Virus record (IMG/VR): IMGVR_UViG_3300040736_000114
Coordinates: 1-36,640 of that record
From: a virus
Lineage: Duplodnaviria > Caudoviricetes
Reading direction: 5' to 3' (one strand)
Length of the DNA stretch: 36,640 bases
Of the stretch, positions 20,918-36,640 are shown in pieces. Under the pieces are notes generated by a model. That model was given only the letters and a program-made list of their open reading frames with translations. It did no database searches and was not told the DNA's origin. The first letter of the stretch is position 1; each line of letters starts with the position of its first letter. The position numbers were made by a program, and so were the translations under genes.

Positions 20918-22255
20918 ATGGCCGTCCAGACAAGGAGAATACCCGCAATAGGTGACCTGTATGAAACCGACCCGACCAAGATAGCAGACACGTCGACCTT
21001 CGTGGGCGGAGTAAAGGGATTGGTGAGCGCTGCGGCGGGCGGTATCGCTAACAGCAATCTCGCTACGGGCCGGGCACTGCGGAAGGGAATCGGAGATTTC
21101 GCGTCCATCGGCTCCAATGCGGACAAGCCATTCATGGCACATTGGGACCCCGCGCTTGACCCGACGAACACGGCGGCTGCCGCGGCCAAGAATCAGACGC
21201 CGGCGGCAGTAAAGCCGAAGCCGGTACCAATCGTTTCGGAAGCGCAGGCCGGAGAGATTCCCAAACCTGTGGTGGATATCGGGGCAAGCGCGATGCTGGG
21301 TGCCGCAGGAGGAGCACAGCCGGTCAGCGCGGCTCTTGAAAAATCGGTGGGCACTCCCCCTGTGCAGACGCAGACCGCCTCCCCGACAGCAACGCCGAAC
21401 AAAGCGCAACCCATCGACGGCGGCAGCGGGTATGCCGTTGTAGACGGCAAGCGCATCAACTACCGGGATATCGGAGGTACGGGAGACCCGCTCAGAAAAA
21501 GCGGAGGGTACGTCATGGCGAAGTCAGTCCCGGGAATCGGAGAGACTCCGGCCGACCCGAGCATCGGAGCCATGGACCGTGAAGTAAAGAGGATCCAAGG
21601 GGTGCAGGATGACCTTAACCTGTCCGGTATCGGCGTCATGAGCCCTGATGCCGCACGTAAGTCCATCATGTCCCGGCAGGGTCAACAGGACCTGGACCAG
21701 CGGGGCGATCTGGTAAGCATTGCCGCGCAAAAAGAGGCGAATGACGCGGATTACAAAAACAGGGCGTTGGCCATCAATGCCCCGCTCATTGAGGCACAGG
21801 CCAAAAACAACCTCGCGGAGGCGCGGGCGAAAGAGTTCGCCGTGAGCCCCGCTGGTGTAAAACAGGCGCTGGCCAAGGAGGGCGCGAAAGACAATAAGGA
21901 TGCCGTAATGAAATATTTCGACCTGTTCAAGGGACGCAGCCTCCCGCAGCAATGGGCCGGAAAACACATGGAATTGGCCAAGAAATTCGCCATGTCGGAT
22001 GACCCGAGTAACGACTACGGAATTTTCTTTAATCGGGATACGCCGAATCGTGGTGGTATTGGCGTGAGCAGAAAACTGTTTCTCCCCATCGTGCAAGAGT
22101 ATCAGCGGAAAGGCTTCTCGGAAGGTGACGCAATGGCCCGTGCGGTTGGGTATCTGCAAAGCCTTGAAAAGACACAAGGCAAACTCTACGAGGATATTCC
22201 GAATATGGACCGGTTTGTGCACACTGATAACAAGCCTCAAGACGTGGGAGTTTAA
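20918..22255 (+). CDS. Probable DNA ejection/internal virion protein
   Basis: GGAG SD; Ala/Gly/Pro-rich N-terminus and helical C-terminus; directly upstream of the giant gene. Confidence 0.6.
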   Translation: MAVQTRRIPAIGDLYETDPTKIADTSTFVGGVKGLVSAAAGGIANSNLATGRALRKGIGDFASIGSNADKPFMAHWDPALDPTNTAAAAAKNQTPAAVKPKPVPIVSEAQAGEIPKPVVDIGASAMLGAAGGAQPVSAALEKSVGTPPVQTQTASPTATPNKAQPIDGGSGYAVVDGKRINYRDIGGTGDPLRKSGGYVMAKSVPGIGETPADPSIGAMDREVKRIQGVQDDLNLSGIGVMSPDAARKSIMSRQGQQDLDQRGDLVSIAAQKEANDADYKNRALAINAPLIEAQAKNNLAEARAKEFAVSPAGVKQALAKEGAKDNKDAVMKYFDLFKGRSLPQQWAGKHMELAKKFAMSDDPSNDYGIFFNRDTPNRGGIGVSRKLFLPIVQEYQRKGFSEGDAMARAVGYLQSLEKTQGKLYEDIPNMDRFVHTDNKPQDVGV

Positions 22256-22257
22256 TT

Positions 22258-25200
22258 ATGGGAGTGTATGATTACGAAGTTCCTGATTTCGTGAATGTGG
22301 ACGTGGACGCGATCCTGAAGGATTTCCGTTCAAAACCCATTACCCCCTACGTCCCTCATCCCGAACCGGTTGCCGAAGAGAGCGAATTCACCAAGGGCAT
22401 GAAACGCGGCATGGAGGGCTTGAAAAGCGCCGGGTATGGCGCCGCCGGTCTCGTCGGCTCCGGTCTCGGAATAGACTCCGTGCGCGACTGGGGATACCAG
22501 GGTTTCCTGGAGCATGAGGAAGAGGCGTCAAAACATGCGGGACGAGTCCAGAACATCGAGGACATCAAGAGCATCGGCGACGTGGGAGACTGGGCCGCCG
22601 GTACGTTCGGAAGTCTGGTGCCGTCCATCGGTGAGGCGGCGGTGACCTCGGCCGCCGGCGCGATTGCAGGTTCCGCCATAGGCCCGGAGGGGACCATCGC
22701 GGGTGGTATCACCGGTTTGGTCGGCAAACAGGCGGCCAAATCCATGGTTCGCAAGTTGGCCAGAACATATGTCAAGGATGGGATGGAACGCCAGGTTGCC
22801 AAAGCGGCGGCGAAAGAGGCGGTCGAATCACTCCCGGCCAAGGCGCTGATGCGCAATCTCGGCACCAAGGCAGGCATCGTCGCCGGAACGGCGCCCGTCG
22901 AGGCGGGGGGCATGTGGGGCGAAGGGATGCAGCAGGGGAAAGATAATCCCTATTCCGCCGCGGTATTCGGTACGCTCTCCGGCCTGTCGGAACTGGTCGG
23001 CGGCGAGGCGGAACTTATCGACATATTCACCAACCCTGCCCGTCAGGCGGTGAAGGGAAATATCGTAAAGCGAATCGGCGTGGAATTGAGCAAAACCATA
23101 CCGCAGGAAGCGGCGCAGGAAGCCACACAGGAAACGTTAGCTATCATCAACCGCAAAGTGGTGGACCCTTCGTACGAGATGTTCGGGGATGACGCCCGGA
23201 GCCGTGTGCTCAACTCGGCGGCCGCCGGAGCACTCGGAGGCGTGGCCTTCGGTGGAGTCGGCGGAGTGATGAGCGGAAGGAGCGAAGGGCGAGGAGCAGG
23301 GAATGAGGAAGAGACACCCAGCCCCCAGCCCCCAGCCACTGAAGTTGACCCATGGAAAGAGGCAGAAGAACCACCGCACCCGGTTACCGCGGCAGAAGCC
23401 GAAGAACAGCCGGTCATGCTGGAGGTGCCGAAGGGGCCGTTGACACGCGCAGTAGAGACAGGTACCGGGACCGTCCCGAATATCGGAGAAACTATACCGT
23501 CTATCACGCCGACGCAGACCACAGATGAACTGGTGCTGGATGAGGCTCGCGACTGGGCGAAGCAGATGGTCGGTTCGGGCCGGACGGATCTGATGCGCCA
23601 GCATGGCGAGCCGTCCAGAGTGTACGACCAGAGAATCCTGGAGTCGTACCAGAAGAAGGATGAGCGTTCAACGTCATCCAGCCCCAAATACGCCAATGTT
23701 GTCTTGGTAAATCCTGAAACCGGCGCACAAGAAACAGTCAAGCCGGAAGAGGTGGCGGACAGGCTCAAGAGCGGCTGGCGGACTCCGAACCAAGAAGAAT
23801 CACCCGTCACTCATCACTCGTCACCTGTCACTGATTTACATTCCGTCACCGACGCAGACCGGAACATGCTGCGCATGGCACAGTTGCGCGCTGATTATTG
23901 GGAGCGCGGTTCCCTGGATAACGGGCGGAGCAACAAGACGCAGCTCTTCCCGTGGCTGAATTCGTGGGGCAAGATCACACCGGCGGAAGTGGGCAAGGCG
24001 ATCGGCAATTTCCTGGAAGGTAGAAAGCTGGGGGATGTTCAGCAGCGACTAGTGGAAGCCGCGCTTGAATACGAGCGGGAAAACCCTGTGCCGTTTGCGG
24101 AAGAGCAAAAAACAACGAAGGAGGAATCTCAGGATGAAAAGGTTCAAGAAGAAGTGCGGGGGCAAGGGCCGGGGGAAATAGCGCCGGCGGCTACGAATGC
24201 TTTGCGGGAAAGGGCGCAACGGTACGCGGAAAAAGCGGGGTATGGTGATGTCTCGGACTGGAGCGATAAGGAAGTCGCGAGTTTTGTAAAAACCTACGAT
24301 GCGTGGAGATTCGCGGAGAGACAAAAGCAGCATCTCACGCAAAAGATAAGCCGGACCAAAGAGCCGAAGGCCCTGGAACGGCTGCAAAAAACCCTGGGTC
24401 AGGTCCGCAAAAGACAGGCTGAACTGGGGCTGAAAGGGGCCGCACGTGGCGAAGAAACCGGAAATCAAGGAACCGCTGGAAAAGCCTCGGCCGGAGCCGA
24501 AACAGTGCCGCCGGTGCAAAAACTGGATGGACAGGAAAGCGACGGAATGCCCGTGGTGCAGCCTGCCGATGAAGTGAAGGCTGTTCCACCCATCACTCAT
24601 CACCCATCACTCATCACTGATACTGAAAATAAAGGGGGGATGCAGGATGATTTGTCCGAAGTGCGGCAAGAAGAGCGCGGGACGGAGGGAGAAGTGCCCG
24701 CAGTGCGGGGAGAAACTGTAGGAAACGAACAAAGGAAGGCCAAGTTTGCGGAAGCCCGCAGGAAGCATATTCTGAGAAAGCTGGCTGAGGCGAAAGAACC
24801 GAAAGAGCGTGAGCGGCTGCAAAAGGCGCTTGCCCGTTTGGAGGCAGAACGTGATTCAAAACAGGGAAAAACCGAGGAAAAAGCCGAAGTAGGAAAGCTG
24901 GGTAAAGATATCCGTAAGCAGAGAGTTGAAGAGTTTAAGAAAAAGTATGGGTATACCGAAGCTGATAACGGAGAGAAACAGGATTCAAGAAAAGCCCCGG
25001 AAACACGCCAGGAGAAGCTGCTCGATACCCTTGAAAAAGCCTACGAGACACAGACAAAGCGGTTGAACAGTATGAATCTGCCCGTGCCTTCCAAGAATGA
25101 TGTGCGGCAGTATATCCAGGACGGCAAAGGCGCGGTAGCGGATGTTACGGCATCAATTCAAGATATCATGGAAGAGATGTCGAGAGCATCCGTTCAAGAG

Positions 25201-28200
25201 TCGGATTCGAGTATCCCTTCCACAACTCCCGCCACCGAAGAGGAGCGGCCTGCCGGGGCCGCTCCGCCCGCCTCCGATGAAATGTCGAAGGCACCAAGTA
25301 TGGTCAGAGATTTTGCCGCAAAGGTATTGAATGGTGAAAACCATCCAAAAAGACTGGTCTTCAAAGTGACAACGGAAACAAAACGCCAAAAAGTTATTAA
25401 CGATACCGGTGTTGATATAGGTGGATCAGTGGAAATGGTTCTTCCCGATTCAATTATCCATGTGAAAAAACGGCACTTGGATATTACTCTCGACGACTGG
25501 GAAAGACTCCCTGAGATAGCGGAAACATTCAACGATTCATACATTGGGCGCGCAATTGGAGATCCCAAAACAAAAAGAATGATTTTCGTCAGAGAAAGCG
25601 ACCCATATCAATATGTATATGTGGCTGAATTTGCAAGTGGAGGCAGGGGAAAAAGGCTTATCGTTAAAACCTATTTCAAAGATACGTCCAAAAATATTGA
25701 AGATTTCCTTGAAAAAAATGCGCAAAAAACAAAAGAGGCTTCTTCTGGTGTCGGGGATCTCACCCAACCTGCTTTACGCCCCCAGAATTCCACCTCTTCT
25801 GTGGATATTGTCCCCAATTCCGATGGTAATGTCAAGGAAAACGAAGGTAAAATAGACGACTTCGGCGAAAAGATAGGCGGAGCGAGGAAGGACACGGCGG
25901 AAAAGGTGTCCTCGCAAACGCGTAAGGCAAAAGACAAAGAAACGGCGCCCGCCTGGAAGAAGCGCTTCATCGTCTCCGAGAGCGTGAAGACACCGGGACA
26001 ATTTAAAATAATCGACACCAGGGAAGGGCGGTACAGCTTCTCATCGGGAGGGCAGCCCTTCACTTCGAAAGAGGAGGCCGAAAACGCCCTACCCGTGTAT
26101 GCCGTGGCGAAGACGCATCATGTGTACCAGAACGCCGACAAAACATGGTCCGTCTGGAAACGGGTGGGAGAACGGAAGCGGCTCAAGGTGGTGGACCGGG
26201 ATTTCCAGAGCCGGGAAGACGCCATGCGTTTCATGGCGAAAAACGCCGTAAGTCTTCTTGAAAACAAGACCAGCTTCGGCGAAGAGATTCTTCCGGTTCC
26301 GGAAATAGCCGTGCGCAAGGGCGAGGAGAGGCGTACCGGCCCGGCGACGCCTGAGATGTTCATGGAGACCTTTACGCCGCGCGGTATCGAGTTTGGCAAT
26401 TGGACCAACCAGGAAGAGCGGCAGCAGGTCATGGACCACGCCTATGATGGGCTCCTCGACCTGGCCGAGGTTCTGGGCGTCCCTCCCAAGGCGCTGATGC
26501 TGAACGGCGAACTGGCTATCGCCTTCGGAGCGCGCGGCCAGGGTCTGTCCGGAGCCAAGGCCCATTACGAGCGCGATTACGGCGTCATCAACCTGACCAA
26601 GATGAAAGGGGCCGGTTCCCTGGCCCATGAATGGTTCCATGCCCTCGACCATTACCTGGGAAGGCTGGACGGCAAGGCTACGTCCGAAAAGGAACAGAAC
26701 AAGCGTGGTGACCAGGTTTACAAGACCAGGGGGACCGGCGACTATCTGAGCCACGGCGCAAGCTACAAATCACAGCTGCGGCAGGAACTCCGGGAGGCGT
26801 ATACCGCCCTTGTCAAAACGATGTACAAAAAGGCGGAGCAGTACGTCGAGGACACCGAGAAGACGGAAAAGTTCGTCGGCGCCGCGCGGGAAAACCTGAA
26901 GGAAACGCTGGACAGGATTCGGACCGACCTTTCCCGCGACCTTTCCAATGAATACACCTGGAGAAAGAGCAAGAAAGGACTTGCTCCGGCATCCGCCGAA
27001 CAGCTTGCCGAGTTCGACAGGCTGGCGTCAATCCTTGTGGAAGGCGGTGACCTGGCAACATCCTTCCGGCAGGATAATCCTACAGCTCCGGCCAACAGCC
27101 GCGCGGCTTTTTCGGGCCGTAACACCAATGAAAGCCTGGAGGGTATCAGCCGCATACTCAAGGCCGTGCGTAACCGCTCCGGGTTCAACGCCGAACGGAC
27201 CGGGACGCTGGACAGGCTCCGCGCGGATATGAACCTGTATGACCAGCGGCTGAAGATGCTGCAAGAAGCGGAAAGCGGTACGGAAAAAACCAAACAGGTA
27301 CCCACATCGTTCGCCATGGAAGCGAAGAAGATGGATCAGGCCCGGTCGGGAGATTATTGGAGCGAACCGCACGAAATGGCGGCCAGGGCCTTCGCCGCCT
27401 ATGTGGAGGACAAGGTAGCGGAAAGGGGTGGGCAGAGCGATTTCCTTGTCTATCATGCCCATGGCGGTATTGTCGTGCCAATGATAGACGGCTTTGTAGC
27501 ACGGCCGTATCCGGAAGGTAAGGAGCGGCAGGCGTTGAATACGGCTTTTGACAAATTCGTCAAGGCCATTCGCACCGAAGAGACCGAAAAAGGCGTAGTG
27601 ATGTTTGCTCTTGCGCCAAATCCAGGAGCGCCGTTCTATTCCAAACTGGAAAAGGTTGTTGAGTCGAAATTCCCCGGAAAGTCTGACACGCGCATGGCCG
27701 CCCAGATGCTCCAGGCGTGGCAGAAGAAAGGAGAGTTTACATCTGACGAGTTGGGGCAGAGCGGACTAAAGGATTTCCTTGCCGGAGAGACGAAAGTTAC
27801 GAAGCAGGATGTGCTTGATTTTCTGAAAGAGCAGCAGACGGAGTTTCAGGATGTGGTGCTGGGGGAGGAATCAAAAGAGCAGTTGTATGAAGGGCCAGAT
27901 TCATGGGGCGATATGCCAGCCATGACTTTGGAGTCGTGGAAAAACGAGATACCGGAAAATGAACAGGAGGCCAAGGCAACCCATTGGTACGATTGGTATA
28001 GAGACGATGCGTACCGTGCCGAGGATATGGGAGAGGACCTTTCATGGAGCGATTACCGTGACGGATTGATTGATGATTTGAAGAAGTCGCAAGAAATTGA
28101 ACAACCTACTCACTTCTCCCGATACACTGAACCCGGCGCGAAAGAAGGAAGTTACCGGGAGATGTTTGTGACGGTGCCAAGTCAAAAACCCGTTAGTGTC

Positions 28201-31200
28201 CAAGGTGAATATAGGCTCAAGTCCATTGGCGATGGGCGATGGGAGTTGACAAAAGGCGGTCAGTTTGTTGGCGAATACCCGTCTAAGGCAGAAGCTGAAT
28301 CCCGCATGGCAAAAGGTTCTGAAAAGACTTTCGGTTGGCAAGATGGTCACTCCCAATACTCCGACATCAAAAATCCCGTAGTCCGTATCCGCTTCAACGA
28401 GCGTGAAAACTCCGGAAAGCGTATTCTTTTCGTCGAAGAGATGCAAGGCCCTTCCGACACCGAACAGAAGAAAATGCCGGAATGGCTACGAAAGCGCATC
28501 TATGATATCGGTGTAAAGCGTATCCTTGCCTATGCCAAGGAGAACGGTTTTGACGGGGTTGCGTGGACAACGGGGGAGATGCAGGCGGCGCGGTATGACT
28601 TGTCGAAACAAATCAGCCGCATTAAGTATGAAAAGTCTTCGACCGGCGTTTCGAATGAGGTCAATGAGGAGTATGTAAAAGACGGCGTATTGCTTGCCTA
28701 TGATCTTGACGGCAAGCAGGTCATCAAGGAGTACATCTCCGATGGCGAGTTACCGAATTATATCGGAAAGGATGCTGCCGAAAAATTGATGAAACTGAAT
28801 CCTGAGCCGGGTCGGACTCTTGGCGGCTTGGGTGGCATTTCAAGAGAACTGTCTGGACTTGATTTGAAAGTAGGCGGCGAGGGCTTGAAGCGTCTTTATG
28901 ATCAGACCATACCCGCCATGTTCGCAAAGTACGGCAAGGAGACGGTGGGGAAAGTAACGTACTTTCATTCCGGGCAAAAGCAATTCGGTGAGGGAAACGC
29001 GCTTACAGCTGCGGAACAGGAAGAATATGACATCCTTGAAGAACTGGAGAGCAATGACCGGCCGATGACGCAAGCGCAACTTGACCGTTTTGGAGAGCTT
29101 GATGATCGTTTAGCAGCTATAAATTATGAACGGCCCGAAATGAAACCGGGGGCAATAACAGTCCCCTTCATCCCCATCACCGAAAAGACAGCCTCTGTTT
29201 ATCCTCTATATTCCGCGGCTACTTCCAGGGCCTCCTCCGGCCTACCGGCCGCCGACATCAGGGCCTCCTTTGAGCCGGTCTATAAGAATATGCCCAAGGC
29301 CCCTCCCTGGCGGGTGGTGCAGACCGCCGCCGAGCTGCCGAAGCGGGCGCTGGATGATGCTGCGCGGCGGGGAATCCCGCAACGCTTCCTGCAAGCGGTT
29401 TACTTAGGGCATGAGGTCGTCTACGTCGCGGACCACTTCAATTCCATTGAGGAGGCGAAGCAGGTCATCCTGGAGGAGGTCGTGGTGCATCACGGCCTGC
29501 GCGGCATCATGGCGCGGGATACCTACGAGAAACACATGCTTCAGGCGGCGCTCTGGTACGCCAACAAGCGCACCGACGAATGGAAGGCCCTGGGCAAAAC
29601 CTACGGACTCGACCTCAAGAGCCGGGCGGGACGCATCGAAGCGGCAGAAGAAATGTTGGGACGGGATGCCCGGACCGGCACGGATTCAACCCTGATGACC
29701 CGCATCATAGCCGCAGTCAAGGAGTTCCTGAGAAGCATCGGTTTTGATTTGGGGTACGGAGAGTCGGAGATCCGGGAGCTGCTGGGCAAGGCCAGGAGAT
29801 TCGTAGAAGGAAAAGAAACTCCCCGCCTTGAGAAAAAGGGCAAGGGGGGGATAGACTACGGCGCCCTTCTCCGTAACCTCCGGGAACGGGGAATCACGGA
29901 TGAGCAGCTTCAGGCCGTCGCGGCCTTTGAGCCGGGAGGGGCAAATTACGCCGTTGCTGAACAGTCACGAAATCGAATGGTGGAGGTTCTGGATGCAGTC
30001 AAGAAAATAGCTGCCGGCAGTGATGAGGAGACATTAAAAGATTTTCGCGGAGATCTGGAGACTCTGGGTGGAACAAACGACGTAACTCTTGTCTGGGGTG
30101 ATTCTAAAAAAGGATTGCGTCATATCGGTGAGAAACGCGGGGCGCAAGTAGTCGCGGACGTATTGACGGCAGTGGCTCATGGTTCAATCGCCAAGCAAGT
30201 AGCTGGCAAGAAAACCGTACACATTGTCTTGGGAAACACTGAGGCAGTTCTTTCGCTGGATGAGCATGGAAAACGAAAGTCCTGGTTGTTGACTGGCTGG
30301 AGAATAGGCGAGTCCGATGCTTTCGGTGGGGTTGGTGCCCATGCCGATGCTACGCAGGCCGGACCTGTCTTTAGTCGTTCCGACCTGGGAGCGGACTCTG
30401 TAAAACAAATTATAGCAAATATGGAGAATATTGAAAAGCTCTTATCAGCAACCAAATTCGCCCTCTCCCGGCTCCAGGACGTAAAAACCCAAATCACCGA
30501 CAAGGGTGTCTCACTGAACACCGCCGAGCGGGAGGTGCTGGAGGCCGACCGCGCGAAGGCGGTTGAAGCCATCGGCGAGACGGTCAAAGACTACGACGAA
30601 CCGGGCCGGTTCCTGTTCCGGGCAATCTACGAATCCGACCAGGACAAGGCCCCCGGAGTGGTGCCATACAATCCTGAGCGCGGGCACTACGCCGCCGGGG
30701 AAAACCTCAAGGGCTCATGGTGGACCACATCCCTTTCCACGGCCCAAGAGATAGCCTGGAGCAAGGCGCGAGGCGGTAAAAAGGTGAAGATTGTTGCCCT
30801 TCCGTTGGATAGGTTGCCAAATGGCAACATATACATCCAAAACACCAACCCGCCGGGAATGGTCTATGACCTGTTTGTGGGCCTGCCGGCGGATGTGCCG
30901 ATGTCGGCCGTGCGGGAAATGCCGATTGACTCCGGTATCCGCTATGCCCTGGCGGACCGCTTCGCCGGGTACGTGGGAGAGATGCAGGGCGGCGCGATCT
31001 GGAAGAAGATTGCGCGGCTGCTGAATCCGTTGGACTGGTCACACGTTTATGGCTGGTTCAAAAACATTACTCCTCAGAATATCCAGAACGGCCTCGCCCG
31101 CGTCTTCCGCGACCCTATCGGGGCGGCGGAGGTGGACGAAGACAAGAAGATTTTCGTGGAGAGGGGCATCCAGCGGGAGAGGAACAAGACAAGCCTTGTG

Positions 31201-34200
31201 CTCCGTCTGTTCGGCTGGTTCGGGCCGAGAGAGAAAATTCCGAACTTCTTCGAGCGGCTCACCAAAACCTTCACCACCTTTCACAACAATGACCTGACAA
31301 CGGCGTGGGGCCGGATAGTCGATGAATTCGGAAAACTGTCACAAGGTGACCGCAAGGGTGTGGACTGGCTCCTGTACCGTGGGGATGTTGACGGCAAGGT
31401 GTACCGGACCTATGACATGGTGAAGAATGACAGGAAGGTGTCCAAGAAACTCCCGTCCGAAGCCGCGTTCAATACCTACCTGAAGGTGAGGACGCATATC
31501 GACACCACAGTCGCCGATACCATCGAGGATATAACCCGCCAGTTCATGGCGGAAAACGGCATGTCCGGAGATGAGATAGAAAAGCACATTTTCAATTACC
31601 GGCAGGGTCTCGCGCGGCACGTCGGCTGGTTGCCGCGCAACCATGGCGAGGGGAATTGGCAGGTCAACATCTATCAGCGCATCACCGGTCTCAAGTGGGA
31701 CATCGGACAGTATCAGGCTGTGAAGCATGTGAAGTATCTGACCAAAAATGGTAAAACCGTAGAGTTTGAAAGGACGATAGATGCGCTGTCCGCCTATCTC
31801 CCCTACTTCCCGAGCCATGATGTTGCCAAGGAAATCAAGACGCTGGCGAAACGCTTCGGCCTTGCCTACGAACAGGAAAACGGTCGGCAGCGCGTCTATG
31901 TGGACAAGGGGGCTCAGAAGAGATTCGGTAAAGCTGTTGAGAAACTGAAGGCGTCCCTGGCCGGAGAAGGTCTGGACCAGGCCAAGCGCGAGGAGATGCA
32001 AAAGAAACTGGAAGAATTGGAAACCGCGCTTACTTTTATCAAAGACCATTCACCGAGTAGACAGATCCAGTTCTTCGTCAAGCAGGCGTCCAAAATAATC
32101 GGGCGTTTGGAGTCAAAGAACCTGATGAGCATCCACCGGGCCAAGGAGAATCTGAAGCAGGCCATCGAGGACAAGGAATCCGCTACGGAAATCAGGAGGC
32201 TCGAAGACGAACTGGAAAAACTGGGTGACGGAAGCATCAAGGTGAAGGTCTATATGCGACTCCAGAGTTCCAGGTCCAAGGCCGACAAGCACATGAAGGC
32301 CGTGCGGGCCGACCTGAGAAAGGCCATCCCGGAGAATTTCCGGGAAAGCGGCATCTACGAAGTAAAGGTCAAGTTCAATGACCGGATATCCGAATCCACC
32401 TACGGAGACATGCAGAACGATTTCGCCATGGAGCAGGCCCAGTTGCAGGCAATCAGCATGGCGTCATCCAAACAGGAGATTACCAAGGAAGAAGCGGCGG
32501 CAATCCGCCACCAGATTATCCAATCGACCGCCGAAGTGCTCATGGCCCGCGGGGCCGGAGCGCACAGGATTCAGCGCGCCGAGTACCTGATAGAAGGCTA
32601 TGACACGGAAAACACCCTCGATGCCTACCAGGATTACATGACCGGCACGGCGGGGATGCTGTCCAAGGCAAAATACGCACACGACCAGTTTGAGAATTTC
32701 CGCTATGCGAAGCCGGAAGTGAAGGCGTGGGCCGAGCAGTACATCAAGGACACCCTGCGCAACATGGGGTATGGCGACATGGTGAGCGGCAACCTGCGCT
32801 CTCTGGCCTCCTTGGCGTATCTCGGGTTCAAGGTCTCATCCATGGTCATCAACGCCACCCAACCGTGGACTCTCGGGGTCGCTCACTTGGGCATGCTCAC
32901 CAAGCGGAGCCCGCTGAAGGCGATTGCCAAGGCGCAAAGGGATATTCTGAGCTGTAAAACAGCGAAGAAAGAGGGAGATATAGGGATCACGAAGTCTGAA
33001 GCGGAAATATTCGCCTCGGAAATATGGAAAGAGCAGGAACAGAAGACTGCTGTGCACGAAATGGCAGGTTCCTCGGAAGGCGCTACCGGCAAGGTGTCCC
33101 GCTTCATGCACACCCTGACCGACAAGGCGCTGTTCGGCTTCCAGGAAGTGGAGATGCTCAACCGAAAGACCGTCATCCTTGCCGCGTACCGCACCTTCAA
33201 GGCGGACGGAATGGAGCATGGCGAGGCGCTGAAAAAGGCCCTGGACGTGAACGGGCAGGTCAACAACGAAATGAGCCGGGCGAACAAGCCGGGAATAGCG
33301 CAGAATCCTGTCGGCAATACCCTGTTCACCCTGCAAAGCTTCACGTGGCGTACCTGGAACTGGGTGTTCAACCGACTCACCAGCGGCAAGAAGGAAGACA
33401 TGATTGCCCTGCTCCGCTACGCCGCCGCCATGGCGATAATCGGCGGAGTAGCCGCCCTGCCGGGCGGGGATGAGCTGGATAAGCTCTATCAGATGCTTTT
33501 CGGAGAGAGCCCGAAGCTGGCGTTCCAGAAATGGACGAAGAAACACGCCCGCGAATACGGCTCCCTGGGCGAGATGGTCAACGGCTTCGCCTGGCACGGA
33601 CTGGCCAGCGCCACCGGCGTCAACATATCCAACGCCATGCGCCTACAGATACCAATTGTTTCCCCGGTACTGTCGGGCGATTCCCTTCCCGAGGCCGCAG
33701 GCGGAGTGTTCACCGGCCTCGCGCAAAAGGGCGCCAGGGCGGTTACGGCGGCAAGCCGGGGGGATATGTACAGGATGATTGAGAATATTTCCCCAGAGGC
33801 CCTGTCCGGAGGCATGCGGGCCTACCGAATGGCCACCAGGGGCGCCACCACCGGAACGGGAAAGGTCATTTTCGACGAGAGCGGAAGGCCAATGAAATAC
33901 GGCGCTGGTGAGGCGGTTACCAGGGCGCTCGGTTTTCAGCCGTCCCGGGTATCCGAACGCAACGACCTGACCAACGTGGAAAAGGGTCTGTCGGTACACT
34001 GGAAAGAAGAACGCGGGGATCTGCTCGCCGAGTTGCGCCTCGCAAAACCGGGGGAGCGCAAAGAGGTGACGCTGAAAATAATGCGCTTCAACCGACGTCT
34101 CCGCGATTCCCAGGCCGCCGGGCTGGTGCCGGTAATCAAGGCGGAAACCATCCGGCGGACTCTGGCCGAAAAGCCGAACAAGCGCAAGGCTGAATGGGAA

Positions 34201-34221
34201 CAAAATCAGTTGACTACGTAA
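22258..34221 (+). CDS. Large polyvalent (ejected virion) protein, 3987 aa
   Basis: Gly/Ala-rich membrane-like N-terminus; PBECR-like RNase (~25300-25730); KIDDFGEKIGGARKD (LPD5-like, 25849); zincin HEWFH (26626); DYWSEPHEMAARAF (LPD1-like, 27352); LFVEEMQ domain; EEVVVHHGLRG metallopeptidase-like (29473); barnase/colicin E5-like RNase (~29976-30305); ART-like (~30604-30900); PLxRFG-like WLPRNHG (31627); helical C-terminal domain. Confidence 0.85.
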   Translation: MGVYDYEVPDFVNVDVDAILKDFRSKPITPYVPHPEPVAEESEFTKGMKRGMEGLKSAGYGAAGLVGSGLGIDSVRDWGYQGFLEHEEEASKHAGRVQNIEDIKSIGDVGDWAAGTFGSLVPSIGEAAVTSAAGAIAGSAIGPEGTIAGGITGLVGKQAAKSMVRKLARTYVKDGMERQVAKAAAKEAVESLPAKALMRNLGTKAGIVAGTAPVEAGGMWGEGMQQGKDNPYSAAVFGTLSGLSELVGGEAELIDIFTNPARQAVKGNIVKRIGVELSKTIPQEAAQEATQETLAIINRKVVDPSYEMFGDDARSRVLNSAAAGALGGVAFGGVGGVMSGRSEGRGAGNEEETPSPQPPATEVDPWKEAEEPPHPVTAAEAEEQPVMLEVPKGPLTRAVETGTGTVPNIGETIPSITPTQTTDELVLDEARDWAKQMVGSGRTDLMRQHGEPSRVYDQRILESYQKKDERSTSSSPKYANVVLVNPETGAQETVKPEEVADRLKSGWRTPNQEESPVTHHSSPVTDLHSVTDADRNMLRMAQLRADYWERGSLDNGRSNKTQLFPWLNSWGKITPAEVGKAIGNFLEGRKLGDVQQRLVEAALEYERENPVPFAEEQKTTKEESQDEKVQEEVRGQGPGEIAPAATNALRERAQRYAEKAGYGDVSDWSDKEVASFVKTYDAWRFAERQKQHLTQKISRTKEPKALERLQKTLGQVRKRQAELGLKGAARGEETGNQGTAGKASAGAETVPPVQKLDGQESDGMPVVQPADEVKAVPPITHHPSLITDTENKGGMQDDLSEVRQEERGTEGEVPAVRGETVGNEQRKAKFAEARRKHILRKLAEAKEPKERERLQKALARLEAERDSKQGKTEEKAEVGKLGKDIRKQRVEEFKKKYGYTEADNGEKQDSRKAPETRQEKLLDTLEKAYETQTKRLNSMNLPVPSKNDVRQYIQDGKGAVADVTASIQDIMEEMSRASVQESDSSIPSTTPATEEERPAGAAPPASDEMSKAPSMVRDFAAKVLNGENHPKRLVFKVTTETKRQKVINDTGVDIGGSVEMVLPDSIIHVKKRHLDITLDDWERLPEIAETFNDSYIGRAIGDPKTKRMIFVRESDPYQYVYVAEFASGGRGKRLIVKTYFKDTSKNIEDFLEKNAQKTKEASSGVGDLTQPALRPQNSTSSVDIVPNSDGNVKENEGKIDDFGEKIGGARKDTAEKVSSQTRKAKDKETAPAWKKRFIVSESVKTPGQFKIIDTREGRYSFSSGGQPFTSKEEAENALPVYAVAKTHHVYQNADKTWSVWKRVGERKRLKVVDRDFQSREDAMRFMAKNAVSLLENKTSFGEEILPVPEIAVRKGEERRTGPATPEMFMETFTPRGIEFGNWTNQEERQQVMDHAYDGLLDLAEVLGVPPKALMLNGELAIAFGARGQGLSGAKAHYERDYGVINLTKMKGAGSLAHEWFHALDHYLGRLDGKATSEKEQNKRGDQVYKTRGTGDYLSHGASYKSQLRQELREAYTALVKTMYKKAEQYVEDTEKTEKFVGAARENLKETLDRIRTDLSRDLSNEYTWRKSKKGLAPASAEQLAEFDRLASILVEGGDLATSFRQDNPTAPANSRAAFSGRNTNESLEGISRILKAVRNRSGFNAERTGTLDRLRADMNLYDQRLKMLQEAESGTEKTKQVPTSFAMEAKKMDQARSGDYWSEPHEMAARAFAAYVEDKVAERGGQSDFLVYHAHGGIVVPMIDGFVARPYPEGKERQALNTAFDKFVKAIRTEETEKGVVMFALAPNPGAPFYSKLEKVVESKFPGKSDTRMAAQMLQAWQKKGEFTSDELGQSGLKDFLAGETKVTKQDVLDFLKEQQTEFQDVVLGEESKEQLYEGPDSWGDMPAMTLESWKNEIPENEQEAKATHWYDWYRDDAYRAEDMGEDLSWSDYRDGLIDDLKKSQEIEQPTHFSRYTEPGAKEGSYREMFVTVPSQKPVSVQGEYRLKSIGDGRWELTKGGQFVGEYPSKAEAESRMAKGSEKTFGWQDGHSQYSDIKNPVVRIRFNERENSGKRILFVEEMQGPSDTEQKKMPEWLRKRIYDIGVKRILAYAKENGFDGVAWTTGEMQAARYDLSKQISRIKYEKSSTGVSNEVNEEYVKDGVLLAYDLDGKQVIKEYISDGELPNYIGKDAAEKLMKLNPEPGRTLGGLGGISRELSGLDLKVGGEGLKRLYDQTIPAMFAKYGKETVGKVTYFHSGQKQFGEGNALTAAEQEEYDILEELESNDRPMTQAQLDRFGELDDRLAAINYERPEMKPGAITVPFIPITEKTASVYPLYSAATSRASSGLPAADIRASFEPVYKNMPKAPPWRVVQTAAELPKRALDDAARRGIPQRFLQAVYLGHEVVYVADHFNSIEEAKQVILEEVVVHHGLRGIMARDTYEKHMLQAALWYANKRTDEWKALGKTYGLDLKSRAGRIEAAEEMLGRDARTGTDSTLMTRIIAAVKEFLRSIGFDLGYGESEIRELLGKARRFVEGKETPRLEKKGKGGIDYGALLRNLRERGITDEQLQAVAAFEPGGANYAVAEQSRNRMVEVLDAVKKIAAGSDEETLKDFRGDLETLGGTNDVTLVWGDSKKGLRHIGEKRGAQVVADVLTAVAHGSIAKQVAGKKTVHIVLGNTEAVLSLDEHGKRKSWLLTGWRIGESDAFGGVGAHADATQAGPVFSRSDLGADSVKQIIANMENIEKLLSATKFALSRLQDVKTQITDKGVSLNTAEREVLEADRAKAVEAIGETVKDYDEPGRFLFRAIYESDQDKAPGVVPYNPERGHYAAGENLKGSWWTTSLSTAQEIAWSKARGGKKVKIVALPLDRLPNGNIYIQNTNPPGMVYDLFVGLPADVPMSAVREMPIDSGIRYALADRFAGYVGEMQGGAIWKKIARLLNPLDWSHVYGWFKNITPQNIQNGLARVFRDPIGAAEVDEDKKIFVERGIQRERNKTSLVLRLFGWFGPREKIPNFFERLTKTFTTFHNNDLTTAWGRIVDEFGKLSQGDRKGVDWLLYRGDVDGKVYRTYDMVKNDRKVSKKLPSEAAFNTYLKVRTHIDTTVADTIEDITRQFMAENGMSGDEIEKHIFNYRQGLARHVGWLPRNHGEGNWQVNIYQRITGLKWDIGQYQAVKHVKYLTKNGKTVEFERTIDALSAYLPYFPSHDVAKEIKTLAKRFGLAYEQENGRQRVYVDKGAQKRFGKAVEKLKASLAGEGLDQAKREEMQKKLEELETALTFIKDHSPSRQIQFFVKQASKIIGRLESKNLMSIHRAKENLKQAIEDKESATEIRRLEDELEKLGDGSIKVKVYMRLQSSRSKADKHMKAVRADLRKAIPENFRESGIYEVKVKFNDRISESTYGDMQNDFAMEQAQLQAISMASSKQEITKEEAAAIRHQIIQSTAEVLMARGAGAHRIQRAEYLIEGYDTENTLDAYQDYMTGTAGMLSKAKYAHDQFENFRYAKPEVKAWAEQYIKDTLRNMGYGDMVSGNLRSLASLAYLGFKVSSMVINATQPWTLGVAHLGMLTKRSPLKAIAKAQRDILSCKTAKKEGDIGITKSEAEIFASEIWKEQEQKTAVHEMAGSSEGATGKVSRFMHTLTDKALFGFQEVEMLNRKTVILAAYRTFKADGMEHGEALKKALDVNGQVNNEMSRANKPGIAQNPVGNTLFTLQSFTWRTWNWVFNRLTSGKKEDMIALLRYAAAMAIIGGVAALPGGDELDKLYQMLFGESPKLAFQKWTKKHAREYGSLGEMVNGFAWHGLASATGVNISNAMRLQIPIVSPVLSGDSLPEAAGGVFTGLAQKGARAVTAASRGDMYRMIENISPEALSGGMRAYRMATRGATTGTGKVIFDESGRPMKYGAGEAVTRALGFQPSRVSERNDLTNVEKGLSVHWKEERGDLLAELRLAKPGERKEVTLKIMRFNRRLRDSQAAGLVPVIKAETIRRTLAEKPNKRKAEWEQNQLTT
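23800..23834. repeat. Heptamer array TCACnnn x5
   Basis: TCACCCG TCACTCA TCACTCG TCACCTG TCACTGA. Confidence 0.8.
24586..24620. repeat. Second heptamer array TCACnnn x5
   Basis: CCACCCA TCACTCA TCACCCA TCACTCA TCACTGA. Confidence 0.8.
24647..24721 (+). CDS. Nested 24-aa zinc-ribbon micro-ORF (+1 frame of the giant gene)
   Basis: MICPKCGKKSAGRREKCPQCGEKL* preceded by AAAGGGGGGA. Confidence 0.4.
   Translation: MICPKCGKKSAGRREKCPQCGEKL
25724..25801 (-). ncRNA. Predicted antisense sRNA 1 after the PBECR-like domain
   Basis: Minus-strand TTGACA (25835-25830), 17 bp, GACAAT (25812-25807); nested stems 25733-38/25793-98 and 25743-48/25782-87; ends in a minus-strand U-tract. Confidence 0.5.
30309..30402 (-). 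ncRNA. Predicted antisense sRNA 2 after the barnase/colicin E5-like domain
   Basis: Minus-strand TTTTCA (30437-30432), 17 bp, extended -10 TGCTATAAT (30417-30409); closing stem GAGTCCG/CGGACTC (30310-16/30392-98) enclosing two hairpins. Confidence 0.55.
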
Positions 34222-34256
34222 GAAGAATGGGGTACTGTTCAACAAGTTATTGAACA
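34210..34256 (+). promoter_or_regulatory. Lysis promoter with palindromic operator
   Basis: TTGACT (34210-15), 17 bp, TACTGT (34233-38); TGTTCAA-caagtta-TTGAACA at 34236-34256. Confidence 0.7.
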
Positions 34257-34304
34257 ATCAAAGCGACACTGGGTAAGTTTCAACCCGGATGGATGCGGGA
34301 ACTG

Positions 34305-34347
34305 AAAGCCCCGGTGGGACCGACAACGGTTCTATCGGGGCTTTTTT
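34305..34347 (+). terminator. Intrinsic terminator/attenuator upstream of the lysis genes
   Basis: AAAGCCCCGGTGGGACCG-acaa-CGGTTCTATCGGGGCTTT followed by TTT. Confidence 0.85.
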
Positions 34348-34364
34348 GGTATGGAGGTGCAAAG

Positions 34365-34706
34365 GTGGCGGCGACACCGGATCCGCTGTACACGAAATTA
34401 TTGGAGCAGGGCATCATTTTGTTGTCCGCGACTGTTATCACTGTAGGAGGAGCACTGTGCGGCATCCTGATTTACATCTACCAACAAGGACAAAAGGGAT
34501 TTTCAGAGGCATTGGAAAGCCTTGAAAATCGAATCGGTGAAATAGCGAAAAGCCTGTCAAACCTTGCTGAAAAGCTCTTTGAACGGACTGATGACCATGA
34601 AGCCCGCTTGTCTGCCATGGAGGCCGTATGCAAGGACCGACATAGCGGTGGACAATACCCGTATCGCAGGAAATCGGATTCACCTCACGGAGTTGAGGAG
34701 CCATGA
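34365..34706 (+). CDS. Holin-like protein (single TM plus coiled coil)
   Basis: GGAGGT SD before GTG 34365; one TM then a coiled coil; first gene of the lysis module. Confidence 0.55.
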   Translation: MAATPDPLYTKLLEQGIILLSATVITVGGALCGILIYIYQQGQKGFSEALESLENRIGEIAKSLSNLAEKLFERTDDHEARLSAMEAVCKDRHSGGQYPYRRKSDSPHGVEEP

Positions 34707-34720
34707 AGGAGGGAAGAAAG

Positions 34721-35059
34721 ATGAAAACTGTCGTATTTGGAGTAATGTTGGCGGTGATGTGTTTGCTGTCCGTAGGATGCGCCACAACCACAACCAAGGA
34801 AATGGTGCAGGCGGAACTCACGCTGATGCAGACGAAAATCGCAGCAGCGTCAACCACGTCCGCGCTCTGCCAACAGGGCATAATGTCTCAGCAGGATTGC
34901 GCCACGGCGCTGGCCGCCTATCAATTGTCACAGGTGTCGAGCAATACGGCCCTTTCGCTGTTGCTCGCCAATTGCACGGACGCGGATCTTTCCGCTCAAA
35001 TCCAGGCGGCCATAGCGGCTGGATTCCCTGGTTTATCTTTTGTTAAGGGGACGCAGTAA
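34721..35059 (+). CDS. Lipoprotein (possible spanin component)
   Basis: Signal peptide with lipobox-like LSVG-C; alternative ATG at 34703. Confidence 0.65.
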   Translation: MKTVVFGVMLAVMCLLSVGCATTTTKEMVQAELTLMQTKIAAASTTSALCQQGIMSQQDCATALAAYQLSQVSSNTALSLLLANCTDADLSAQIQAAIAAGFPGLSFVKGTQ

Positions 35060-35496
35060 TGGATAGGCTGGAGGGTTTAGACCCCGGATTCAGGGCAACG
35101 GTGGAGCGGATAGTCTCGGAACTGGAGAAAATCACCGGGAGAAAATGGCTGGTCACGTCCGGGTATCGTAGTATCGCGGAGCAGGATAAACTCTACGCTC
35201 AGGGGCGGACAGCAAAAGGACCTGTAGTGACCAACGCCAGGGGAGGTTCTTCGGCTCATAACTGGCGACTGGCGGTCGATATCTGGCCGCTTCAATCGGA
35301 CGGTTCGGTTGACTGGAAGGCACAGAAGCCAGTTTTCAAGCCCCTTGCAGAGCTCGCCAGGGCGGCAGGATTAACACCTGGATACGATTTCAAAACCCTG
35401 TCAGACTGTAGTCACATAGAGGACCCGGATTGGCGGAGCGTTCGGGCAGATTGGGCGAAAAAGAAGCTTTTGGAGAAAGGGTCAGGCATTGGGTGA
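35059..35496 (+). CDS. Endolysin, M15 family L-Ala-D-Glu peptidase (CwlK/Ply500-like)
   Basis: GYRS..EQ..LYAQGRT...VTNARGGSSAHN..LAVD...D.SHIE. Confidence 0.9.
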   Translation: MDRLEGLDPGFRATVERIVSELEKITGRKWLVTSGYRSIAEQDKLYAQGRTAKGPVVTNARGGSSAHNWRLAVDIWPLQSDGSVDWKAQKPVFKPLAELARAAGLTPGYDFKTLSDCSHIEDPDWRSVRADWAKKKLLEKGSGIG

Positions 35497-35560
35497 CCTT
35501 GAAAAACCGCTCAAATCGAAAATTTGGAAGCCGGTTCCGTGAGGCTCGAAAGGTAACATC

Positions 35561-35932
35561 GTGATACTGGGAACATTTGAACTCGGATACGAATACGTCA
35601 CGCTCGAAGTGCGCAAAGGGTCAGGCGGATCATTTACCTGCTGTCATACAAACCATCTGAGACCTGTAATCAGCGTCGGAATGGATTACGAAAAGTTTGA
35701 AAGAGTCGTCGGTTGTCTTATTCACGAAGCATTGGAATTTTCGTTATCTCGTATGCAGGCACGTTTTAGCCCATCACTCGAACTGGCATGCGACCACAGT
35801 GCGTATCTGTTCAGCTTCGGTCATGTAACACTTTCAGAAGCATCGTTTATGGTGGCTGAATATCTTACATCAGCCATGCCTCATCTCAAAGAAGCATGGG
35901 AGAAAAGGGCAGAACCGGACATGTGTCTATGA
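35561..35932 (+). CDS. Small zincin-like protein (HExxE)
   Basis: GCLIHEALEF following beta strands; GTG start with AAGGT upstream. Confidence 0.55.
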   Translation: MILGTFELGYEYVTLEVRKGSGGSFTCCHTNHLRPVISVGMDYEKFERVVGCLIHEALEFSLSRMQARFSPSLELACDHSAYLFSFGHVTLSEASFMVAEYLTSAMPHLKEAWEKRAEPDMCL

Positions 35933-36438
35933 TGTACTTGGCAGCAAAACATACAGCCACCAGTTTCTTCGGGAAACTCATCAAACTGTATACCTTTTCC
36001 CGGTACTGCCACGTCGAGGTGATATTCTCCGACGGCAAATGGTTTTCAGCCAGGGAATTCAAGGGCGCCGTGTCGTTCCTGCCAGGACCTCCGTCGGATG
36101 AGACCCCTGATATGTACGATTACTTTCCGCTGCCCTTCACACCGGAGCAGGAAGCCCGCATGCGGACATGGGCGGAAAAAGAAAGATTCCGGGATGATGG
36201 GTCGCCGTGCAAATACGATGTCAGAGGCGTCCTGTGCAGCTTTCTGCCAATCCCCATCGGATGGCAAAGCGCGGATGACTGGTTCTGTTCTGAGATAGTG
36301 TCGGCCCTGTTCCAGACCGAGGGATGGTTTGCGGGATATTCCGCGGCGGCGATATCGCCCAGGAAATGCGTGGAGCTCTATAAAAAGGAGATATACAGCT
36401 ATGGGAAAGTGGCTTGTTACGAGACTGAAAGAGTATGA
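35929..36438 (+). CDS. Permuted papain-like NlpC/P60 (YiiX-like) phage protein
   Basis: YCHVEV (His), KYD..G, WFCSE (Cys) in permuted order; ATGA coupling. Confidence 0.8.
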   Translation: MMYLAAKHTATSFFGKLIKLYTFSRYCHVEVIFSDGKWFSAREFKGAVSFLPGPPSDETPDMYDYFPLPFTPEQEARMRTWAEKERFRDDGSPCKYDVRGVLCSFLPIPIGWQSADDWFCSEIVSALFQTEGWFAGYSAAAISPRKCVELYKKEIYSYGKVACYETERV

Positions 36439-36640
36439 GACAACCTTTGCCGGGATTCTCCTCGGCGCTGGAGCCGGGGCCGCTATGAGCATCAAATCCG
36501 GCCAGATCACGAAGACGGCGCTTATCACCGGCGCTTCAATCGGCGCATGTGGGGCACTGATGAAAACTCCCACATGGGCAAGGATATTCAATAACAGACA
36601 GGATGAAACTTCAAGTAGCACTGAAAGAAGTAATCAGTAG
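36401..36640 (+). CDS. Holin-like two-TM membrane protein
   Basis: AAGGAG SD; WLVTRLKEYETTFAG followed by two Gly/Ala-rich hydrophobic segments. Confidence 0.6.
   Translation: MGKWLVTRLKEYETTFAGILLGAGAGAAMSIKSGQITKTALITGASIGACGALMKTPTWARIFNNRQDETSSSTERSNQ

What the first reader, a model, noticed from the sequence alone, without database searches (positions are those of the whole stretch)
30309..30437. Antisense unit 2: extended -10 promoter and three-way-junction RNA after a barnase/colicin E5-like domain
Minus-strand TTTTCA-17-TATAAT with a TG extension (TGCTATAAT). The RNA has a perfect 7-bp closing stem (GAGUCCG/CGGACUC) with two arms (CAGGUCGG/CCGGCCUG; UCGG..UGGG/CCCA.CCGA). A 7-bp closing stem matches the length of a tRNA acceptor stem, and colicin E5 cleaves tRNA anticodons, so a tRNA-decoy role is conceivable (inference). 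There is no U-tract, so the 3' end would need processing.
Basis: partly seen in the sequence, partly recalled or inferred. Interest (0 to 1): 0.78.

Follow-up and report, generated by a model that had tools for sequence, protein, structure and literature searches.

The report
Hidden RNA antidote in phage protein
A giant phage protein gene hides, on its opposite strand, a small gene for a folded RNA whose promoter and shape are kept across dozens of phages and which travels as one swappable unit with a predicted RNA-cutting domain, most likely serving as that enzyme's antidote.

Summary
The feature is real. The promoter and three-way-junction RNA lie antisense inside a 3,987-codon phage polyvalent-protein gene, just after a PBECR1-type predicted RNase domain with its His/Thr pair intact.

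In 42 homologues 23 of 28 pairs show compensatory change, and G-U pairs favour the minus strand 110:14. A strong sigma70 match precedes 22 of 42 copies (controls 5 of 2,380). Codons under the RNA are synonymously frozen, and the RNA persists as non-coding DNA behind stand-alone nuclease genes. An RNA model hits 55 of 57 nuclease loci; searching from the RNA, 43 of 53 distinct copies have such a nuclease next door. Domain, RNA and promoter (29952-30455) are replaced together in two close relatives. Loop sequences follow nuclease clades, and extra or orphan RNAs occur.

Best reading (inferred, 0.6): a protein-binding RNA antitoxin, type III-like in function but not a member of the known families. 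The tRNA-decoy idea is not supported for this copy. No transcript or binding is shown. No Rfam match; ten paper searches found no description. The scan noted similar antisense units in other phages before (e1-9712188, e1-2668651).

The parts
22258..34221 (+). 3,987-aa phage polyvalent protein gene in the virion-gene block (LPD1, PBECR3, DarB-like C-terminal part); host reading frame of the element
29952..30455 (.). Exchangeable cassette: nuclease domain + antisense RNA + promoter; replaced by 135 nt in G007 and by about 1,577 nt in G006
29983..30306 (+). PBECR1-type (BECR fold) predicted RNase domain
   Evidence: Pfam PBECR1 E 0.003-0.008, below cut-off; relatives pass the cut-off; model pLDDT 90, top 14 fold matches all RelE/ParE/CDI/colicin-type toxins, best Z 6.0
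30121..30123 (+). Conserved His codon (predicted catalytic)
   Evidence: H in 90% of 138 aligned homologues; PMC5512222 section 19
30292..30294 (+). Conserved Thr codon (predicted catalytic)
   Evidence: T or S in 89% of 150 aligned homologues
30432..30437 (-). -35 hexamer TTTTCA
   Evidence: family conservation
30409..30417 (-). Extended -10 (TG-N-TATAAT)
30310..30402 (-). Predicted ~90-nt three-way-junction RNA (start inferred from promoter spacing; 3' end uncertain in this copy)
30392..30398 (-). P1 closing stem, 5' strand
   Evidence: 7 of 8 P1 pairs with two-sided changes
30310..30316 (-). P1 closing stem, 3' strand
30355..30387 (-). P2 arm (9 bp) with 15-nt apical loop 30378-30364; loop ends ACG and AGG invariant in 42 of 42, middle varies by nuclease clade
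30319..30350 (-). P3 arm (11 bp with bulges) with 7-nt loop 30337-30331 (YACNAAM in this clade)
25369..25701 (+). Sister unit 1: PBECR3 domain of the same protein
25720..25835 (-). Sister unit 1: antisense promoter (25835-25807) and a different branched RNA with U-tract
   Evidence: (z -3.6); not tested for covariation

Best explanation
The phage gene carries a swappable cassette made of a predicted RNA-cutting (PBECR1) domain and, on the opposite strand just behind it, a conserved promoter and three-way-junction RNA that likely binds the domain and keeps it switched off. Shown: RNA structure, strand, promoter conservation, nucleotide-level selection, one-to-one linkage, joint replacement, loop classes that follow nuclease clades, extra and orphan copies. 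Inferred steps: (1) host sigma70 polymerase makes the RNA in lysogens and while the late gene is expressed; (2) the conserved junction and P2 motif give a fold that PBECR1 domains recognise, and the two variable loops set which nuclease clade is blocked; (3) the cell that makes or already harbours the phage is protected, while the domain delivered with the virion into a naive cell is free to cut RNA; (4) extra and orphan RNAs give cross-immunity against the nucleases of other phages, as orphan immunity genes do in polymorphic toxin systems (recalled). An RNA gene on the opposite strand solves the problem that an internal domain of a 4,000-residue protein has no room for a downstream immunity-protein gene.
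For: Covariation and strand: the 14 top-ranked column pairs are all helix pairs; 5 exceed the maximum of my tree-based null; G-U 110 vs A-C 14. Promoter: score at least 10 of 13 in 22 of 42 vs 4 of 1,190 and 1 of 1,190 shifted controls. Selection on the nucleotides, not the peptide: among 30 coding loci synonymous codon identity is 0.70 under the RNA (14 sites) vs 0.33 in the domain (39 sites), e.g. Pro CCT 30/30, Arg CGT 30/30; the tail is modelled as disordered; five loci have a stop right after the domain and keep the RNA with a shared frame-breaking 1-nt deletion. Linkage: 55 of 57 nuclease loci; 43 of 53 distinct RNA-first hits have a nuclease within 760 nt. Cassette swap. No frame of 70 codons or more between nuclease and dnaN in L021, so no ordinary immunity gene there. 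Stems vary freely while unpaired loop and junction bases are fixed, which fits recognition by a protein rather than pairing with the own mRNA. Tandem extra RNAs with other loops (L102, L142, L088, L025, L034). Copies with no family nuclease found in proviruses 86-88% complete (G002, G003, G008) and in complete G009, whose only PBECR1 has its own different antisense unit. Precedent for RNase plus RNA antitoxin in a prophage: AbiF/RCd22 (abstract).
Against: No transcript, toxicity or binding is shown. The domain is below the Pfam PBECR1 cut-off (17-18 bits vs 27.6) and its fold matches are middling (Z up to 6.0, no Foldseek E below 0.001), so RNase activity is a prediction. This copy lacks a U-tract and departs from the family at three P2-loop positions, so it may read through into the nuclease frame as a longer antisense RNA or be decaying. 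Four of 42 homologues had no promoter match at all and two scored under 8. Loops following nuclease clades is also expected from physical linkage alone. Three of the four orphan records are incomplete, and 5 of the 10 RNA-first copies without nuclease had only 253 nt of flank or less. L002 and L031 have the nuclease but no model hit (L002 has a different junction RNA; L031 keeps only the 3' piece). 41 of the loci built the model. The homologues are related, so the counts are not independent events.
Confidence: 0.6

Rival explanations
1. Antisense silencer: the RNA pairs with the polyvalent-protein (or stand-alone nuclease) mRNA and triggers its decay, silencing leaky expression in lysogens and blocking superinfecting kin, as proposed for STnc6030 of prophage BTP1 and as in convergent type I antitoxins.
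For: Geometry: convergent and fully complementary to the mRNA; in stand-alone genes it covers the 3' untranslated part. This copy lacks a U-tract, so read-through would cover the nuclease codons. Precedent antisense to a DNA-injection gene (PMC7067206 passages).
Against: Complementarity in cis is automatic, so it does not explain invariant unpaired bases across distant hosts, fixed length or one-strand G-U bias. Orphan and tandem copies have no matching message or only a diverged one. Each nuclease clade keeps its own loops while stems turn over.
Confidence: 0.15
2. Cofactor or passenger: the RNA is bound by the domain and is needed for its activity, targeting or packaging (a ribonucleoprotein injected with the virion), not for its inhibition.
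For: Tight one-to-one linkage and clade-specific loops fit any obligate partner; DUF3800 motifs are a precedent for complex RNAs tied to one protein domain on either strand with no known role (PMC5737381 passages).
Against: A host-type constitutive promoter points to the lysogen rather than to late assembly (inference). Orphan RNAs would be useless without the protein. The variable loops are 7-8 nt and fixed within a clade, too short and too constant for programmable guides.
Confidence: 0.12
3. True tRNA decoy: the RNA folds like a tRNA and soaks up an anticodon nuclease, the phage's own or the host's.
For: 7-8 bp closing stem and a 7-nt arm-2 loop with pyrimidine first and A at the sixth place in 42 of 42; a sister clade has YGU-containing loops, the colicin E5 determinant; several fold neighbours are tRNases.
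Against: No ARAGORN or Rfam tRNA signal; two arms only; no 3' NCCA; A at the U33-equivalent place in 40 of 42; the middle base of the would-be anticodon takes all four letters; no YGU in this copy's loops.
Confidence: 0.08
4. No RNA function: a conserved linker peptide plus chance hairpins.
For: The tail peptide looks conserved in most homologues; no RNA-level data exist.
Against: Compensatory changes, synonymous freeze, persistence after stop codons with a frameshift, and promoter enrichment.
Confidence: 0.02

Closest known systems
Type III toxin-antitoxin systems ToxIN, CptIN, TenpIN (PMC12283969, passages read)
   Same: Predicted endoribonuclease paired with a dedicated structured RNA; found in phages and bacteria.
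   Different: Their RNA is a tandem array of pseudoknots upstream of the toxin gene on the same strand, before a terminator. Here it is a single three-way junction downstream on the opposite strand with its own promoter, often in frame inside a giant protein, and the nuclease has the BECR fold.
AbiF/RCd22 of a Clostridioides difficile prophage (bioRxiv 10.1101/2025.04.15.648962, abstract read)
   Same: Prophage-borne toxin neutralised by direct binding of a cognate non-coding RNA, active in cis and in trans.
   Different: Abi_2/AbiD/F protein related to Cas13 ancestors, an abortive-infection setting; the abiF RNA is in Rfam (recalled) and gave no hit here. Ours is a BECR domain in a probably virion-delivered protein.
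PBECR domains of polyvalent proteins (Iyer et al. 2017, PMC5512222; passages and section 19 read)
   Same: Domain family, His plus Thr/Ser active-site pattern, virion-gene context, domain mosaicism.
   Different: The paper proposes targets (mRNA, crRNA) and names no antidote; the words promoter and noncoding do not occur in its main text and antisense scored 0.
MuF polymorphic toxins of temperate phages (Jamet et al. 2017, PMC5576092, passages read)
   Same: Virion-associated toxic domains that need self-protection; 89% are followed by a small candidate immunity frame.
   Different: Immunity there is a protein encoded downstream; here the downstream slot holds an antisense RNA gene.
STnc6030 antisense RNA of Salmonella prophage BTP1 (PMC7067206, passages read)
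   Same: Lysogen-expressed RNA antisense to late injection genes, giving superinfection exclusion.
   Different: 786 nt, no conserved compact fold reported in the passages read, thought to act by base pairing; not tied to a nuclease domain.
DUF3800 RNA motifs (Weinberg et al. 2017, PMC5737381, passages read)
   Same: Several unrelated compact RNAs each tied to one protein domain, in either orientation, often ending in terminators.
   Different: Different protein and no Rfam match to these motifs; function unknown there.

Membership tests
PBECR1 (PF18809) | Score above the Pfam gathering cut-off (27.6 bits) | tested here: not met
   17.0-18.4 bits, E 0.003-0.008, the only family hit. Relatives linked by the same profile score 46-64 bits, so it is a divergent branch.
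PBECR1 (PF18809) | [quoted passage not shown] | tested here: met
   His at 30121, Thr at 30292; 90% and 89% conserved; helix and strand placement in the model
PBECR1 (PF18809) | BECR fold (helix plus four to five strands) | tested here: inconclusive
   Top 14 VIA-align rows are BECR-type toxins, best 7m5f_C Z 6.0, rmsd 3.9, 87 aligned; Foldseek E 0.007; profile hit to 7m5f_C E 0.007. Consistent but under Z 8.
PBECR1 (PF18809) | RNase activity | not testable with these tools
   Needs an assay
Classical type III toxin-antitoxin (ToxIN/CptIN/TenpIN) | Antitoxin repeats upstream of the toxin gene, same strand, followed by a terminator | tested here: not met
   RNA is downstream and antisense in all 55 model hits beside the domain
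Classical type III toxin-antitoxin (ToxIN/CptIN/TenpIN) | H-type pseudoknot unit | tested here: not met
   Nested three-way junction; no significant covariation between loops
Classical type III toxin-antitoxin (ToxIN/CptIN/TenpIN) | Toxin of the ToxN/CptN/TenpN families | tested here: not met
   Only PBECR1 in Pfam
Classical type III toxin-antitoxin (ToxIN/CptIN/TenpIN) | RNA binds and inhibits the toxin protein | not testable with these tools
   Inferred from linkage and conservation pattern only
tRNA or tRNA-like decoy | Cloverleaf with D, anticodon and T arms; 3' NCCA | tested here: not met
   Two arms, no NCCA after the stem, no ARAGORN or Rfam tRNA hit
tRNA or tRNA-like decoy | 7-nt loop with U33; YGUN for colicin E5 | tested here: not met
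   A at that place in 40 of 42; no YGU in this copy's loops
Type I (antisense) toxin-antitoxin | Convergent antitoxin gene overlapping the toxin message | tested here: met
Type I (antisense) toxin-antitoxin | Action by base pairing and mRNA decay | not testable with these tools
   Conservation of unpaired bases and orphan copies argue against it
Any Rfam 15 family | Match at gathering score | tested here: not met
   0 hits in the window; none at the RNA in 7 homologous loci at E up to 5

The most novel reading that the evidence does not exclude
Phage-injected BECR RNases have a general RNA-based immunity layer: every such domain carries its own antisense RNA antidote inside the giant protein gene, one scaffold with a two-loop code sets which nuclease is blocked, and phages and hosts collect orphan RNAs as cross-immunity, an RNA counterpart of polymorphic toxin-immunity arrays.
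Probability: 0.4. Interest if true: 0.9.

Novelty: new variant of a known kind. Interest (0 to 1): 0.8.

Why it matters
PBECR domains occur in up to 26% of polyvalent proteins (PMC5512222), yet no target or self-protection is named there. This gives a concrete, clonable 500-bp unit (108-residue domain plus 90-nt RNA) to test both. If it holds, it adds a BECR-fold toxin with an RNA antitoxin to the type III repertoire, shows RNA genes hidden antisense inside coding sequence where screens of intergenic DNA would miss them, and offers a natural series of nuclease-RNA pairs with different loops for working out a specificity code. It also warns that conserved linker peptides in these proteins can be shadows of RNA genes.

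Tried and rejected
Expression: the one run search listed no holder, so no RNA data could be laid; this is no evidence either way. Rfam: nothing at gathering score in the window, nothing at the RNA in 7 loci. tRNA/tmRNA: none in the window. BLASTN of a homologous RNA against phage and plasmid records and tblastn of the domain against plasmids: no match; tblastn against phage records gave 4 distant ones. Kissing or pseudoknot pairing between the P2 and P3 loops: no significant covariation in 42 or in 90 sequences; a possible AGG/CCU contact is untestable because both sides are near-invariant. Guide-RNA reading: loops too short and fixed within clades. The 135-nt filler at the same site in G007 has a promoter-like match but no significant fold (z -0.1 and +0.7), so I do not count it as an orphan RNA. 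L069 and L078 and 35 of the 92 loci had no strong model hit and were treated as chance pattern matches. Complex prediction was not run: it does not take RNA. PHROGs gave no hit for the domain. Literature: 10 searches found no description of this RNA or of an RNA antitoxin for PBECR domains; the library lacks most subscription papers. In PMC10690425 six supplement files were searched for the loop motif without a hit, but three large files could not be searched; the supplement of PMC5737381 could not be read. The non-coding copies could be among unnamed candidates there.

Full report
Setting. The window is a 36.6-kb phage record with terminase, P22-like portal and capsid genes. The finding lies inside one 3,987-codon frame, 22258-34221, a polyvalent protein with LPD1, PBECR3 and a DarB-like C-terminal part. 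Its packaging into virions is inferred from this context and from PMC5512222 (section 19 read).

The observation. Promoter, stem and arms are in the sequence as written. Alone they are modest: the fold has z -1.7 to -3.3 depending on the cut, and promoter-like sites in 22000-36640 are no more frequent than in shuffles (8 vs 7.6). But the only two 10-of-12 matches are both on the minus strand, each right after a PBECR domain.

The domain. Residues coded by 29983-30306 match only Pfam PBECR1, below its cut-off (E 0.003-0.008). A search of 1.84 billion representatives gave 242 relatives, of which the best 150 were examined; His and Thr/Ser at the predicted active site are 90% and 89% conserved. 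A profile of these also finds nucleases that pass the PBECR1 cut-off. The model (pLDDT 90) has BECR-type toxins in its top 14 fold matches, best CdiA of Serratia 7m5f at Z 6.0, rmsd 3.9 over 87 residues (Foldseek E 0.007). That protein is described as BECR-fold (PMC8616854 passages). RNase activity is predicted, not shown.

The RNA is under selection. I fetched 57 loci by the protein. After removing duplicates, one near-duplicate (L055), L031 (no anchor) and four that the anchor misplaced (L002, L032, L037, L038), 42 sequences including the window aligned almost without gaps. For a three-way junction of 28 pairs, 91% of cells pair and 23 pairs change on both sides; slid controls pair 32-44%. 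In my tree-based null the 14 best-ranked column pairs are all helix pairs and 5 exceed the null maximum. G-U pairs number 110 on the minus strand against 14 for the plus strand. Unpaired bases in the junction and both loops are near-invariant while stems turn over. In 30 coding loci, codons of conserved residues under the RNA are synonymously frozen (identity 0.70 over 14 sites vs 0.33 over 39 domain sites; rank test p 8e-6, sites treated as independent, no correction for kinship), and the tail is modelled as disordered. In L021, L022, L023, L024 and L056 the frame stops just after the domain, and the RNA persists with a shared one-base deletion (L030 shares it but has a frameshift upstream). 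L021 sits between dnaA and dnaN and L023 just after mnmG, so bacteria have taken up the bare pair.

Promoter and end. A sigma70 match scoring at least 10 of 13 lies at the expected distance in 22 of 42 copies (at least 9 in 29), against 4 of 1,190 and 1 of 1,190 shifted windows (19 and 19 at 9); four copies had no match. A U-rich run follows the closing stem in many homologues (at least 7 of 10 in 14, at least 5 in 24), so the whole RNA can act as its own terminator there (inference). The window's copy has only 4 U.

Linkage in both directions. The RNA model hits 55 of 57 nuclease loci, always antisense just behind the domain (41 of them built the model). Searching viral contigs by the loop pattern gave 21 loci: 14 with the nuclease adjacent, 5 full RNAs without it, 2 chance. 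A scaffold-only pattern gave 92 loci, 57 with a strong model hit (61 matches, 53 distinct); 43 of the 53 have a related nuclease within 760 nt, and 5 of the 10 without had short flanks. That pattern imposed three motifs, so their constancy in this set is not evidence. These hits reach distant PBECR1 clades: the scaffold stays and the two loops change with the clade. Linkage alone could give that pattern, though paralogues in one phage (L101, L102) share their N-terminal halves and differ in both C-terminal half and loops.

A cassette. Two close relatives (G006, G007; 96-97% identical in unit 1) match the window up to 29951 and again from 30456; between, they hold 1,577 and 135 other bases and no model hit. 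Domain, RNA and promoter come and go as one piece.

Extra and orphan copies. Second RNAs with different loops follow the first in L102, L142, L088, L025 and L034, and near-copies in L104 and L145. Copies with no family nuclease found lie in proviruses G002, G003 and G008 (86-88% complete) and in G005. The one complete record tested, G009, does encode a PBECR1 4.5 kb away, but it is of another type and has its own antisense promoter and closing-stem unit that the model does not hit. In L075, L063 and L126 the orphan sits head to tail with another RNA-like unit, in L075 and L126 behind an LPD13 frame. Different branched antisense RNAs also follow the window's PBECR3, the PBECR1 of L002 and the matching domain in DarB-like gp69 of the isolated phage BcepMigl (z -2.5); these were folded singly, not tested for covariation.

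How it most likely works. A protein-binding antitoxin (0.6) explains the fixed unpaired bases, the one-strand fold, the clade-specific loops, the lack of room for an immunity gene, and the value of orphan copies. Antisense silencing (0.15) fits the geometry but not the conservation pattern. A cofactor role (0.12) fits the linkage but not the orphans. A strict tRNA decoy (0.08) fails the tests that could be made for this copy, although loop-level mimicry of a substrate may be how an antitoxin binds: a sister clade shows YGU loops, and another shows a loop that resembles a tRNA T-loop (resemblance recalled, not tested). Transcription, toxicity and binding are all untested; no sequencing run was listed.

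Comparison and novelty. It would work like type III systems and AbiF/RCd22 (passages of PMC12283969; abstract) but fails their membership features: position, strand, fold of the RNA and toxin family. No Rfam match. Ten paper searches found no description; the 2017 PBECR paper and passages of a 2026 BECR survey (the term RNA antitoxin occurs 0 times) mention none. Supplements of two RNA-motif screens could be searched only in part or not at all. The scan's earlier notes describe antisense promoter-hairpin units in another polyvalent gene and captured units beside a CRISPR locus; I did not re-examine those loci and do not count them as support. What this locus adds is covariation, the tie to a nuclease domain, the cassette swap and the orphan arrays. 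Verdict: real, new RNA family, new variant of the toxin-antitoxin kind if the mechanism holds; interest 0.8.

Noticed in passing
window 25369-25835: Unit 1: PBECR3 domain followed by a minus-strand promoter and a different branched RNA with a U-tract (z -3.6); near-identical in L176 and L177.
   Followed up: partly
L075 1606-1705 and L063 1645-1745: A second, unrelated ~100-nt RNA-like unit with a long closing stem and U-tract, shared by both loci, head to tail with the orphan RNA; in L075 it is convergent on an LPD13 frame. The LPD13 frame of L126 also scores weakly as PBECR2, so LPD13 may be a BECR nuclease with its own RNA.
   Followed up: partly
L182 1295-1480: Stand-alone PBECR1 of G009 followed by an antisense promoter and a ~140-nt unit with its own closing stem; its promoter is nearly identical to the one before the orphan RNA in L126.
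   Followed up: partly
L083 8290-8370 (BcepMigl gp69): An isolated phage has a related domain in its DarB-like protein followed by an antisense three-way junction of different sequence: a cultured system for testing.
   Followed up: partly
L021 1408-1970; L023 1432-1900; L024 203-600: Stand-alone nuclease plus RNA cassettes in bacterial DNA: between dnaA and dnaN, right after mnmG, and beside a DUF4258/MqsA-like pair.
   Followed up: partly
L101 and L102 (one contig): Three paralogous nucleases with near-identical N-terminal and divergent C-terminal halves, each with an RNA of different loops, plus one extra RNA.
   Followed up: partly
L067/L079 (G005): The RNA and promoter stay in frame inside a polyvalent protein while the nuclease domain in front of them is absent.
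   Followed up: partly
window 29940-29951 and 30456-30470; L180, L181: A short KFA-type peptide recurs at the joints where modules are swapped in the window and its relatives.
   Followed up: no
L025 962-1063; L034 686-786: Second scaffold copies with their own promoters about 380-440 nt after the first, in frameshifted DNA; the frame between them was not identified.
   Followed up: partly
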